Source: a phage
DNA: 64,000 bases
Assembly (NCBI GenBank): GCA_009015555.1
Contig: GCA_009015555.1_3613.1
Strand: one strand, 5' to 3'
The translations under genes were made by a program, and so were the position numbers. Below are positions 38,958 through 40,683 of the stretch, in pieces. Position 1 is the stretch's first letter; each line of letters starts with the position of its first letter. A model generated the notes under the pieces. It was not told where the DNA came from. It saw nothing but the letters and a program-made list of their open reading frames with translations, and did not search any database.

Positions 38958-39269
38958 ATGGCAGCAATTGGCGGAGCATCCCTTGGTGTCCTGACTGGTT
39001 ACCAGATCATGGACCAAGCAACAGGAGAGAGCAAGACCATCTCTGAACTTTTTGCAGGTGGTGGCGGTACTCCCGGCCCGAAAGGTGACAAAGGTGATAC
39101 GGGAGACACTGGACCAGCAGGTCCAGCAGGCCCGGCGGGGGCAGCAGGTGCAGACGGTGTTGGAATCGCTGACATCGCAGCGGCTCGCTCAGGCGATACT
39201 GTAACTCTAACCTTCACCATGTCTGACTCTACAACGAAGACTGCATCTTTCGACCTTCCAGCCGCATAA
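38958..39269 (+). CDS. short collagen-like repeat protein (103 aa)
   Basis: [31 protein letters not shown] Gly-X-Y run. Confidence 0.55.
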   Translation: MAAIGGASLGVLTGYQIMDQATGESKTISELFAGGGGTPGPKGDKGDTGDTGPAGPAGPAGAAGADGVGIADIAAARSGDTVTLTFTMSDSTTKTASFDLPAA

Positions 39270-39274
39270 TTAAT

Positions 39275-39296
39275 CCGCCCTTAGGGGCGGTTTTTG
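39275..39296 (+). terminator. Rho-independent terminator
   Basis: ccgcccttaggggcggttttt. Confidence 0.6.
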
Positions 39297-39312
39297 TACA
39301 TAAGGAGACTGT

Positions 39313-40683
39313 ATGGGAACAATGAGGGGTATCACAGGGGAGCAGAACGGTGTATACTTCGGGTATGCACTTTACGATCTCGTTAACGAAAAACTTATCC
39401 CCTTTGACCAAATTGGCGAGGGGGGATCTTCTGTACCCGGCCCACAGGGTCCTCAAGGGGAGAAGGGGGATAAGGGAGACCCCGGTCCTCAAGGACCTCA
39501 AGGTGTCCAAGGAGAGCCGGGCAATCCTGGTGAACCAGGCCCTCAAGGGGAACAAGGCCCTCAGGGCGAGGCAGGGGAAATTGGTCCTCAAGGACCTCAG
39601 GGACCAGTAGGACCAACAGGCCCTCAGGGCGAGAAAGGGGAGAGGGGTGAACCAGGCCCTCAAGGTCCTGAAGGCCCTGCTGGCCCGCAAGGGGAACAGG
39701 GACCCGCCGGGGCAACAGGCCCCGTTGGACCTTCCGGTGCGACAGGTCTTGTATGGAGAGGGAACTATGATGATTCAGTCTCCTACGACGTTAACGATGC
39801 AGTTGGGTATCAGGGTGCCACATATTTCTCTACTCAGCCATCCACAGGTATCCCACCGGAATCTACTGGTACAAGGGTTAACGACCACTGGGCACTAATG
39901 GCCTCAGAAGGTGCGCCGGGACCAGTAGGTCCAGCAGGACCAACAGGCCCGCAGGGTTTGCAAGGACCAGTAGGACCCGCAGGGCCTTCCGGTGCGACAG
40001 GTCCTGCCGGACCCGCCGGACCACAAGGAGAGCAAGGCCCTCAAGGGCTACAAGGACCACAAGGTCAGCGAGGTATTCAAGGTGTTCCGGGTGAAAAAGG
40101 GGAAAAGGGAGATCAAGGACCAGTAGGTCCGGCAGGCCCTGCTGGCCCGCAAGGGGAACAGGGACCTCAGGGGGAGACTGGCCCTAAGGGAGATAAGGGT
40201 GACAATGCCCTCCCGACCATTTCTGGGATTTATGCCTCCCCGATCAACAAAACGAACTCTTGGATTCAACTCCCCGGTAACAACTTGGGGAATGTTCGTC
40301 TTATTCTCTCTGCAAACAACAATGTCTCTCAGACCCGAGTTGGTTTCTCCGCAGGAACTTCGTCAGTGGCGAAGAGGATCGGATTCTCTTATGCACTAAC
40401 AACAACTTACACGGACGTAAATCGTATTAAGACCGGGAGAACCGGCCCCACCTCGATCTCAAATACAGTAGTTTATCCGTCGGACTCTACTATCAACGTG
40501 GGGTTCGGCGACAAGGTAGTCCTTGTTGTTTTTTGCCACGACACCCTTGAAGCATGGGAAGTGACAGTGGCAGGGGTTGCCCAAAAAACTGCTGTGGGCG
40601 ACACAAGTGGGCGTTTGGCTGTACATGCAGTACAGATCTCCGGGGACAGTACGTTACTCACAGGTAATGTCTACAACCCATAA
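39313..40683 (+). CDS. collagen-like repeat fibre protein (456 aa) with globular C-terminal domain
   Basis: Long Gly-X-Y tracts ([22 protein letters not shown]...) followed by non-repetitive C-terminus. Confidence 0.65.

What the first reader, a model, noticed from the sequence alone, without database searches (positions are those of the whole stretch)
38958..40683. Two additional collagen-like genes forming a collagen-fibre cluster between head and tail modules
A 103-aa and a 456-aa protein each carry long Gly-X-Y tracts; with the 1,094-aa protein there are three collagen-like genes in ~5.7 kb. Multiple collagen-like proteins may form heterotrimeric fibres on the capsid or neck, possibly for host adhesion.
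Basis: seen in the sequence. Interest (0 to 1): 0.35.

Follow-up and report, generated by a model that had tools for sequence, protein, structure and literature searches.

The report
Collagen-stalked capsid fibres, mislabelled tail fibres
Two neighbouring genes of a Cronobacter CR3-like phage encode a short and a long collagen-stalked fibre that most likely stand on the faces of the phage head, not on the tail as databases say; this is a modest variant of known head decorations.

Summary
ORFs 38958-39269 (103 aa, 11-12 Gly-X-Y triplets) and 39313-40683 (456 aa, 35+33 triplets) exist, and runs of six or more triplets occur only in these two ORFs and the 1,094-aa ORF. "Long tracts" overstates the 103-aa protein.

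The window is a Certrevirus about 98% identical to Cronobacter phages CR3/CR8.

The 103-aa gene sits in a variable slot. Its first ~34 residues are shared with phiTE pTE217, the putative hexamer-centre "Pagoda" capsid decoration seen by cryo-EM. In PVP-SE1 the same slot holds a phi29-type head-fibre protein.

The 456-aa gene is an optional cassette between two terminator hairpins and is absent from CR9, KaOmega and phiTE. Its N-terminus resembles the slot anchor (hhalign 90% probability; 0 of 300 shuffles reach the score). A same-family protein, W70_129, is abundant in virions.

I read both as separate homotrimeric head fibres, with the long one probably adhesive. Tract lengths and independent gene presence argue against heterotrimers. 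Capsid placement of the long fibre is inferred, not shown.

The 1,094-aa fibre is a separate module. Its N-terminus copies the tail-sheath hinge strand, which is unexplained.

The parts
34280..34309 (+). Promoter-like site (TTGATT-18-TATAAT, 10 of 12) just upstream of the 204-aa gene. Possible start of the fibre transcription unit.
   Evidence: Consensus scan only. Weak evidence.
34308..34922 (+). 204-aa gene (phrog_3259). First gene after the capsid-gene gap. Its homologues are absent from the CB7 and W70 virion lists, so it is possibly an assembly factor.
34980..38264 (+). 1,094-aa collagen-like fibre (phrog_3904) with eight Gly-X-Y tracts separated by small repeated domains. Its N-terminus [15 protein letters not shown] resembles the sheath N-terminus. 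Foldon-like motifs lie near the C-terminus.
   Evidence: Virion homologues are CB7_10 and W70_131.
38306..38956 (+). 216-aa virion protein (phrog_4998). It is a conserved partner of the 1,094-aa fibre, also in PVP-SE1 and in the jumbo phages EL and Ea35-70. Its stop lies 1 nt before the start of the 103-aa gene.
   Evidence: Virion homologues are CB7_11 and W70_130.
38958..39059 (+). 103-aa gene, residues 1-34: the conserved N-terminal anchor module shared with phiTE pTE217 (76% identity) and PVP-SE1 gp066 (34%).
   Evidence: (phrog_20253 E 2.8e-12 over residues 1-41).
39066..39164 (+). 103-aa gene, residues 37-69: 11 uninterrupted Gly-X-Y triplets, about 9-10 nm if triple-helical. The length varies by in-frame indels among relatives (5 to 13 triplets).
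39165..39269 (+). 103-aa gene, residues 70-103 plus stop: small C-terminal cap (GIADIAAARSGDTVTLTFTMSDSTTKTASFDLPAA). Conserved only within the collagen-type alleles.
39275..39296 (+). Terminator-like hairpin T1 (6 G-C pairs, -12.9 kcal/mol, U-run) between the two genes. A hairpin plus U-run is kept at this position, with different stem sequences, in POP15, SSBI34 and a metagenome contig.
39313..39438 (+). 456-aa gene, residues 1-42: N-terminal module conserved among long-family members (LTH01, A73/W70, SSBI34, POP15, L011). Related to the 103-aa anchor by profile-profile comparison.
   Evidence: Not detected by hmmsearch or hmmscan.
39439..39753 (+). 456-aa gene: first Gly-X-Y tract, 35 triplets (about 30 nm).
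39754..39909 (+). 456-aa gene: 52-residue non-collagen knot ([25 protein letters not shown]...W). Sub-threshold match to carbohydrate-binding module CBM5/12.
   Evidence: 18.5 bits, cut-off 26.2. Conserved at 45-53% identity in LTH01, A73 and IME08.
39910..40206 (+). 456-aa gene: second Gly-X-Y tract, 33 triplets (about 28 nm).
40207..40683 (+). 456-aa gene: 158-residue C-terminal tip domain plus stop. Predicted all-beta sandwich. A rare family: 6 representatives among 1.84 billion.
   Evidence: (pLDDT 80).
40718..40748 (+). Terminator-like hairpin T2 (9 pairs, -17.2 kcal/mol, U-run). Homologous to the single terminator that follows the slot gene in CR9 and phiTE.
40754..40782 (+). Promoter-like site (ATGACT-17-TAAAAT with TG) conserved in phiTE and CR8. 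Probable start of the neck-gene unit and the downstream boundary of the fibre unit.
   Evidence: Consensus and conservation only.

Best explanation
The two genes encode two separate homotrimeric, collagen-stalked fibres of the virion surface, most likely both planted on the capsid.

The 103-aa protein is the CR3-type allele of a variable 'hexamer-centre decoration' slot of Vequintavirinae. It consists of a conserved ~34-residue N-terminal anchor, a ~10-nm triple helix of 11 Gly-X-Y triplets, and a small cap. In phiTE the same anchor carries a globular domain and is the putative 'Pagoda' protein at the centre of the capsid hexamers. A collagen stalk forces a trimer, so the protein would sit as a trimer on a quasi-six-fold axis, as SPP1 gp12 does.

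The 456-aa protein is an optional cassette added behind the slot gene. It has a related N-terminal anchor, then two triple-helical segments (about 30 and 28 nm) hinged by a small CBM5/12-like knot, then an exchangeable beta-sandwich tip. It would act as a long, flexible adhesive head fibre that increases encounters with the host surface or flagellum.

The conserved hairpin terminator between the genes probably lets only read-through transcripts reach the long gene, so less long fibre than short fibre would be made.

What is shown: the gene anatomy, the shared anchor, the cassette structure, and virion presence of homologues. What is inferred: trimer state, capsid site of the collagen alleles and of the long fibre, attenuation, and adhesion.
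For: Slot homology. The N-terminal 34 residues are 74-100% identical across Certrevirus and SSBI34 while the C-terminal parts are swapped. The 103-aa protein matches phrog_20253, the pTE217 family, at E 2.8e-12 over residues 1-41.

The phiTE cryo-EM paper assigns pTE217 to the hexamer-centre density. It reports pTE217 as the fifth most abundant virion protein. It also reports that the contact region lacks symmetry (PMC11972413). That last point is what a trimer on a six-fold site would give; this link is my inference.

CB7_12, the same slot gene, is in virions. In PVP-SE1 the slot gene has the same anchor and passes Pfam Phage_head_fibr at 69 bits against a cut-off of 24.6.

Long gene. The two N-terminal modules align without gaps over 33 columns. 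hhalign gives probability 90.7 and score 28.7. Across 300 column shuffles the mean score was 8.2 (sd 1.8, max 15.8). In LTH01 and A73 the long gene occupies the slot itself. W70_129 is the orthologue of A73_143, with a 100% identical tip. It belongs to the same PHROG 5073 as the 456-aa protein. It is an abundant virion protein visible on SDS-PAGE.

Family members in unrelated phages lie among head genes. In T1-like UDF157lw the gene is immediately upstream of the capsid gene. In T4-like IME08 it lies next to gp24 and hoc.

Cassette nature. The long gene is absent from CR9, KaOmega and phiTE, which have one terminator homologous to T2. The inter-gene hairpin is conserved with different stems in four lineages.

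The tip evolves faster than the anchor: 50% versus 66% identity in L011, and 23% versus 40% in A73.
Against: The pTE217 = Pagoda assignment in phiTE is itself putative. It rests on abundance and the protein was not modelled.

No experiment places any collagen-type allele or any long-family member on a capsid.

The anchor similarity between the short and long families is not seen by profile-sequence searches. hmmsearch gives E 14 and 23, at ranks 7 and 13 of 1,161 ORFs. The 40-residue N-terminus alone hits no PHROG.

Databases label the 456-aa family 'tail fiber' (PHROG 5073, RefSeq), and collagen-like tracts are common in true tail fibres.

If both proteins use the hexamer centre they would compete. 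How they would share sites is unknown.

Confidence: 0.5

Rival explanations
1. The 456-aa protein is a genuine tail or side-tail fibre, attached at the baseplate or collar, that serves as an extra receptor-binding protein. Only the 103-aa protein is on the capsid.
For: RefSeq and PHROG 5073 call the family 'tail fiber protein'. Collagen-like tracts with swappable tips are typical of tail fibres. BFVD structural neighbours of the tip are named 'tail fiber' or 'tail fiber-like'. The phiTE paper mentions a third, unmodelled putative fibre near the baseplate.
Against: The 'tail fiber' names come from collagen similarity, not from experiments. phiTE, whose baseplate fibre network was mapped, lacks this gene altogether. 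The gene sits behind the head-decoration slot and replaces the slot gene in LTH01 and A73. Its N-terminus is related to the slot anchor. Relatives in T1-like and T4-like phages sit among head genes.
Confidence: 0.3
2. The N-terminal module anchors both proteins to a virion site other than the hexamer centre, for example the neck or collar, capsid vertices, or the 216-aa protein encoded just upstream. On this view the Pagoda assignment in phiTE is wrong.
For: Pagoda was not modelled and was assigned by abundance alone. The 216-aa gene is translationally coupled to the slot gene (1-nt spacer), and its product is a virion protein.
Against: In phiTE pTE217 is the fifth most abundant protein, and the next unidentified protein is more than 100-fold lower. 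Only the hexamer centres (two per asymmetric unit; 120 for T=13 by my count) offer that many unassigned sites. The same figures make a 1:1 adaptor role for the 216-aa protein unlikely. The 216-aa gene travels with the 1,094-aa fibre in jumbo phages that lack the slot gene.
Confidence: 0.12
3. The three collagen-like proteins co-assemble into heterotrimeric fibres.
For: Adjacent genes, the same strand, and similar Gly-X-Y composition rich in Pro, Gln, Asp and Lys.
Against: Tract numbers and lengths cannot be put in register. The flanking domains differ. The genes occur independently of one another across relatives. PBES 02 has lost most of the small protein's tract (5 triplets) while its long gene keeps all but one triplet (67 of 68).
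Confidence: 0.03

Closest known systems
phiTE pTE217 'Pagoda' hexamer-centre decoration protein (Certrevirus; PMC11972413)
   Same: Same genomic slot directly after the 216-aa gene. The N-terminal 34 residues are 76% identical. Followed by the same terminator and promoter context.
   Different: phiTE carries a ~130-residue globular C-terminal part with no collagen. The window's allele has 11 Gly-X-Y triplets plus a 35-residue cap. phiTE has no second, long gene.
SPP1 gp12, collagen-like trimer bound at capsid hexamer centres (summarised in PMC7602432)
   Same: Small protein with a short collagen-like tract. Trimer on a quasi-six-fold capsid site. Thought to serve adhesion rather than stability. 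Gene lies in the head module.
   Different: The host is Gram-positive and the phage is a siphophage with a smaller capsid. gp12 has no long paralogue. Binding of the window's protein to hexamers is inferred, not shown.
phi29 gp8.5 head fibre family (Pfam PF11133)
   Same: The PVP-SE1 allele of the same slot passes this model, which links the slot to head fibres. Trimeric fibre projecting from the capsid.
   Different: The window's proteins do not match PF11133. The phi29 fibre is a helical coiled stalk on quasi-three-fold sites, not a collagen helix on hexamer centres.
W70_129 / A73_143 (Septuagintavirus) and LTH01 565-aa protein, PHROG 5073 'tail fiber protein'
   Same: Same architecture as the 456-aa protein: anchor, Gly-X-Y, 50-residue knot, Gly-X-Y, tip. 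The anchor is related. W70_129 was detected in virions.
   Different: They replace the small slot gene instead of following it. A73 and W70 carry a different tip domain, shared with T1-like phages.
Bacterial collagen-like adhesins (Scl1/Scl2, Lcl) and BclA
   Same: Gly-X-Y stalk presenting a globular tip. Partial matches to the NCBIfam models and to BclA lie within the repeat regions (residues 36-298).
   Different: Scores are far below the family cut-offs (140 versus 325 bits). No LPXTG anchor was seen in the translated sequence (my reading; no anchor or signal-peptide predictor was run). The tip is not C1q/TNF-like.

Membership tests
Collagen triple-helix repeat (Pfam PF01391) | Score at or above the gathering cut-off (27.2 bits) on uninterrupted Gly-X-Y repeats | tested here: met
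   456-aa protein: 114.4 bits, 4 stretches, with tracts of 35 and 33 triplets.
Collagen triple-helix repeat (Pfam PF01391) | The same criterion applied to the 103-aa protein | tested here: not met
   20.9 bits, below 27.2. It nevertheless has 11-12 uninterrupted triplets, so it is collagen-like by pattern but not by the curated threshold.
Vequintavirinae hexamer-centre decoration slot (pTE217 'Pagoda', phrog_20253) | Homologous N-terminal module | tested here: met
   phrog_20253 E 2.8e-12 over residues 1-41. 76% identity over 34 residues. tblastn hits to phiTE, CB7 and DU_PP.
Vequintavirinae hexamer-centre decoration slot (pTE217 'Pagoda', phrog_20253) | Same genomic position, immediately after the phrog_4998 gene and before the terminator and neck genes | tested here: met
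Vequintavirinae hexamer-centre decoration slot (pTE217 'Pagoda', phrog_20253) | Globular 'Pagoda' C-terminal domain | tested here: not met
   The match to phrog_20253 stops at profile position 40 of 164. The C-terminal part is collagen plus a 35-residue cap.
Vequintavirinae hexamer-centre decoration slot (pTE217 'Pagoda', phrog_20253) | Physical location at the centre of capsid hexamers, with high copy number | not testable with these tools
   Needs cryo-EM or mass spectrometry of this phage. In phiTE itself the assignment is putative.
Same anchor family for the 456-aa protein | N-terminal module homologous to the slot anchor | tested here: inconclusive
   hhalign probability 90.7 and score 28.7, against a shuffle maximum of 15.8. 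hmmsearch gives E 14 and 23, and there is no PHROG hit for the isolated N-terminus.
PHROG 5073 ('tail fiber protein') | Full-length profile match | tested here: met
   E 7.5e-124, residues 8-433. The functional label is unverified. The only experimental datum is virion presence of W70_129.
phi29-type head fibre (Pfam PF11133) | Match to the head-fibre profile | tested here: not met
   No hit for either window protein. Only PVP-SE1 gp066 in the same slot matches (69.3 bits).
SPP1 gp12-like collagen decoration | Sequence relatedness to gp12 and trimeric binding to hexamers | not tested
   The gp12 sequence and the primary paper were not available. The resemblance rests on the review table.
C1q/TNF-like tip as in BclA | Jelly-roll tip with structural similarity to C1q or BclA | tested here: not met
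CBM5/12 carbohydrate-binding module (Pfam PF02839) | Score at or above 26.2 bits on the central 52-residue knot | tested here: inconclusive
   18.5 bits, E 0.0021, covering profile positions 1-28 of 44.

The most novel reading that the evidence does not exclude
Vequintavirinae capsids have a hot-swappable hexamer-centre socket. A ~35-residue anchor can carry a globular knob, a phi29-like fibre, a 10-nm collagen peg or a ~60-nm collagen fibre. In CR3-like phages two diverged anchors coexist. They may partition between the two classes of hexamer (pentamer-adjacent and other), with their ratio set by the inter-gene terminator, giving a capsid with fibres of two lengths. Separately, the 1,094-aa fibre would dock on the tail by inserting an N-terminal copy of the sheath hinge strand into a sheath-type beta-sheet. 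That would be a fibre attachment mode not described so far.
Probability: 0.15. Interest if true: 0.6.

Novelty: new variant of a known kind. Interest (0 to 1): 0.4.

Why it matters
If correct, the 'tail fiber protein' label carried by these genes and their relatives in RefSeq and PHROGs is misleading for host-range prediction and for engineering receptor-binding proteins. It would also define a short, portable capsid anchor with naturally interchangeable cargo. Such an anchor would be useful for phage display on large T=13 myophage heads. Finally, it would give the unmodelled 'Pagoda' density of phiTE a testable oligomeric state (a trimer). Certreviruses are reported to bind flagella, and other flagellotropic phages use head fibres to catch the filament (PMC12796354). 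The long collagen fibre is therefore a candidate for that first contact.

Tried and rejected

2. Single-sequence AlphaFold2 of the tip failed (pLDDT 34). An 8-sequence alignment was needed.

3. Profile-sequence tests of anchor similarity between the short and long families were negative. Only the profile-profile comparison with a shuffle control was positive.

4. A word-indexed protein search with the tip found only 4 fragments. The exhaustive search found 6 representatives, and their contigs were too short for context, except L011, which repeats the small-plus-long gene pair.

5. No solved structure contains the anchor, the tip, the 216-aa protein or the N-domain of the 1,094-aa fibre.

6. 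The 204-aa protein is not detectably related to the gene that precedes the fibre in Ea35-70.

7. The supplementary tables of the phiTE paper (abundances of pTE215 and pTE216, identity of the 'third fibre') and the SPP1 gp12 paper were not available.

8. Searches for phi92 capsid cryo-EM and for collagen proteins of Rogunavirus found no papers.

9. A fusion or frameshift joining the two genes was considered and dismissed. They are in different frames and are separated by a stop codon, a terminator and a ribosome-binding site.
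Full report
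**Observation**

The + strand carries ORFs at 38958-39269 (103 aa) and 39313-40683 (456 aa), each with a good ribosome-binding site. I scanned all six frames of the 64-kb window for runs of at least six Gly-X-Y triplets. Such runs occur only in these two ORFs and in the 1,094-aa ORF at 34980-38264. The only other hit is a GGR run in the tape-measure gene, which is not collagen-like.

- The 103-aa protein has one tract of 11-12 triplets.
- The 456-aa protein has tracts of 35 and 33 triplets.
- The 1,094-aa protein has eight tracts of 7-23 triplets.

Pfam Collagen is passed by the two large proteins (114 and 110 bits). The 103-aa protein scores 20.9 bits against a cut-off of 27.2 and does not pass.

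**Source and context**

The region is 98% identical to Cronobacter phages CR3 and CR8 (genus Certrevirus, subfamily Vequintavirinae) and is syntenic with phiTE, CB7, CR9, KaOmega and others. The gene order is:

1. decoration protein
2. major capsid protein
3. a 204-aa gene
4. the 1,094-aa fibre
5. a 216-aa gene
6. the 103-aa gene
7. the 456-aa gene
8. neck genes, sheath, tube and tape measure

A promoter-like site precedes the 204-aa gene. Terminator-like hairpins follow the 103-aa gene (T1, -12.9 kcal/mol) and the 456-aa gene (T2, -17.2 kcal/mol). A conserved promoter-like site follows T2. The fibre genes therefore look like a transcription unit of their own.

**The 103-aa gene occupies a variable slot**

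In every relative, the gene directly after the 216-aa gene starts with the same ~34 residues (MAAIGGxSLGxxTGYxIMDQxTGxxKTISELFxGG). These residues are 74-100% identical within Certrevirus and SSBI34, and 34% identical in PVP-SE1. What follows differs between phages:

| Phages | What follows the anchor |
|---|---|
| CR3, CR8, CR9, KaOmega, F1M1E, POP15, SSBI34 | 9-13 Gly-X-Y triplets plus a 35-residue cap |
| PBES 02 | only 5 triplets, after an in-frame deletion |
| phiTE, CB7, DU_PP | a ~130-residue non-collagen domain |
| PVP-SE1 | a segment that passes Pfam Phage_head_fibr (69 bits; cut-off 24.6) |

The 103-aa protein matches the pTE217 PHROG (phrog_20253) at E 2.8e-12, but only over residues 1-41.

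The phiTE cryo-EM study describes an unmodelled "Pagoda" density at the centre of the capsid hexamers of the T=13 head. It assigns this density to pTE217 because pTE217 is the fifth most abundant virion protein, more than 100-fold above the next unassigned one. The study notes that the contact region lacks symmetry, and that the density is weaker on pentamer-adjacent hexamers (PMC11972413). The CB7 orthologue (CB7_12) is also a virion protein (PMC7344957).

My inference is that the shared N-terminal module is the capsid anchor, and that the window's allele presents a ~10-nm collagen peg instead of a knob. I take 0.286 nm rise per residue from established knowledge. A collagen helix requires three chains. 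A trimer on a quasi-six-fold site would explain the smeared contact density in phiTE. It would also parallel SPP1 gp12, which is collagen-like, trimeric and bound at hexamer centres (review PMC7602432).

**The 456-aa gene is an optional cassette with a related anchor**

Its distribution among relatives is patchy:

- Present in CR3, CR8, PBES 02, P7_Pc, POP15-18 and one metagenome contig (L011).
- Truncated in SSBI34.
- Absent from CR9, KaOmega, F1M1E, phiTE, CB7 and DU_PP.

Genomes without it have a single terminator whose sequence context (CATAATTAA plus hairpin plus TGTCAATGAC) matches T2. In the window, T1 and T2 both follow a CATAATTAA motif, so the cassette is flanked by short repeats.

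A hairpin with a U-run lies between the small and long genes in all four sequence lineages that carry both. The stems differ between lineages, which suggests a conserved function. With only 43 nt between the genes and no promoter-like site there, the long gene probably depends on read-through. This is an inference.

The protein is modular:

- a 42-residue N-terminus
- 35 triplets
- a 52-residue knot with a sub-threshold CBM5/12 match (18.5 bits)
- 33 triplets
- a 158-residue tip

**Where does the long fibre sit?**

Four lines of evidence point to the head.

- *Anchor similarity.* Its N-terminus aligns without gaps to the slot anchor. hhalign gives probability 90.7 and score 28.7 over 33 columns. 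Across 300 column shuffles the mean score was 8.2 and the maximum 15.8. Profile-sequence searches do not detect this, so I rate the homology as probable, not proven.
- *Slot replacement.* In LTH01 and in A73/W70 a long-family gene replaces the small gene in the slot.
- *Virion presence.* W70_129 is the orthologue of A73_143 (tip 100% identical) and belongs to the same PHROG as the 456-aa protein. It is an abundant virion protein visible on SDS-PAGE (PMC11370258).
- *Context in unrelated phages.* Proteins of the same architecture lie among head genes. In the T1-like phage UDF157lw the gene is directly upstream of the capsid gene. In the T4-like phage IME08 it lies between gp24 and hoc. Each lineage has its own N-terminus, as expected for a lineage-specific anchor.

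Against this, databases call the family "tail fiber", and no experiment localises it. I give the tail-fibre rival 0.3.

**Heterotrimers**

The three proteins cannot register their tracts, and they are gained and lost independently across relatives. I consider hetero-assembly very unlikely.

**The 1,094-aa fibre is a separate module**

It travels with the 216-aa protein (phrog_4998) in PVP-SE1 and in the jumbo phages EL and Ea35-70, where no slot gene follows. Both proteins are virion components in CB7 and W70.

Its first 15 residues ([15 protein letters not shown]) are the reciprocal best match in the window to the sheath N-terminus (MAEYQDKVVDVEVSL; E 1.8e-5). The pairing is kept in phiTE, LTH01 and PVP-SE1, with many synonymous DNA differences and unrelated upstream DNA. 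In phiTE, sheath residues E3-L15 form the S4 strand of the inter-subunit hinge sheet.

The jumbo-phage fibres have different N-termini. The N-domain of this fibre is in no deposited structure. A fibre-borne copy of the sheath hinge strand suggests docking on a sheath-type beta-sheet. However, all such sites appear occupied in the phiTE model. This remains unexplained.

**Comparison, novelty and verdict**

The closest known systems are:

- phiTE Pagoda: same slot and anchor, different cargo.
- SPP1 gp12: the same idea of a collagen trimer on hexamers, with no demonstrated homology.
- phi29 head fibres: related only through the PVP-SE1 allele.

The genes themselves are already in GenBank as "hypothetical" or "tail fiber" proteins. 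What is new is the reading of them. They look like a swappable hexamer-centre socket with collagen alleles, plus an optional long paralogous fibre behind an attenuating terminator. That is a new variant of a known kind and of moderate interest (0.4).

My confidence varies by claim:

- High that both are virion fibre proteins.
- Moderate (about 0.6) that the small one is the hexamer-centre decoration.
- Lower (about 0.4-0.45) that the long one is a head fibre.

Noticed in passing
window 34980-35024 versus 43084-43128: The first 15 residues of the 1,094-aa collagen-like fibre nearly copy the tail-sheath N-terminus, which is the S4 hinge strand E3-L15 in phiTE. They are reciprocal best hits in the window (E 1.8e-5). 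The pairing is conserved in phiTE, LTH01 and PVP-SE1 at protein level but not at DNA level. The docking site is unknown.
   Followed up: partly
window 37803-37904 (residues 942-975 of the 1,094-aa protein): Weak match to T4 Fibritin_C (19.4 bits, cut-off 21). Two foldon-like motifs are present ([15 protein letters not shown] and [14 protein letters not shown]), suggesting C-terminal trimerisation units.
   Followed up: no
window 38306-38956; L015 7007-7675; L016 6980-7681: The 216-aa virion protein (phrog_4998) and the large collagen-like fibre form a gene pair that also occurs in the jumbo phages EL (ORF154/156) and Ea35-70 (297/298). This implies horizontal transfer of a fibre module between very different myophages.
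   Followed up: partly
L007 2501-2749 (PBES 02 gene 117): A natural in-frame deletion leaves only 5 Gly-X-Y triplets in the small slot protein (82 aa). This makes a ready-made short-stalk control for structural work.
   Followed up: no
L008 2850-4031 (POP15_012): The annotated start is probably wrong. A TTG at 2850 behind an AGGAG site restores the conserved N-terminal module ([19 protein letters not shown]...).
   Followed up: yes
L009 2904-3692 (SSBI34, 262 aa): A long-family gene that ends within a second knot-like motif and lacks the tip domain. It is followed by an unrelated small gene and is probably a truncated remnant.
   Followed up: no
L014 6657-8240 (A73_143); L017 4873-6417 (UDF157lw_00019): The tip domain of the A73/W70 long fibre is 86-96% identical to the tips of collagen-like proteins in ~43-46 kb E. 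coli phages (the one examined, UDF157lw, is a T1-like Rogunavirus). In UDF157lw the gene lies immediately upstream of the capsid gene and carries a different ~105-residue N-terminus. This is recent exchange of the stalk-and-tip cassette between unrelated phages.
   Followed up: partly
window 47796-47849: A (GGR)n run near the C-terminal third of the tape-measure protein. It is glycine-rich but not collagen-like.
   Followed up: no
window 39229-39690 (- strand) and 35355-36620 (- strand): Long antisense ORFs (153 and 421 aa) overlap the collagen-coding tracts. They are most likely by-products of the repetitive GC-rich Gly-X-Y coding sequence, not genes.
   Followed up: no
window 34308-34922: Homologues of the 204-aa protein are missing from the CB7 and W70 virion lists although both flanking genes are present there. 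Its last 44 residues weakly match a 'minor head protein inhibitor of protease' PHROG (E 6.8e-6). It is possibly a non-structural assembly factor for the fibre unit.
   Followed up: no
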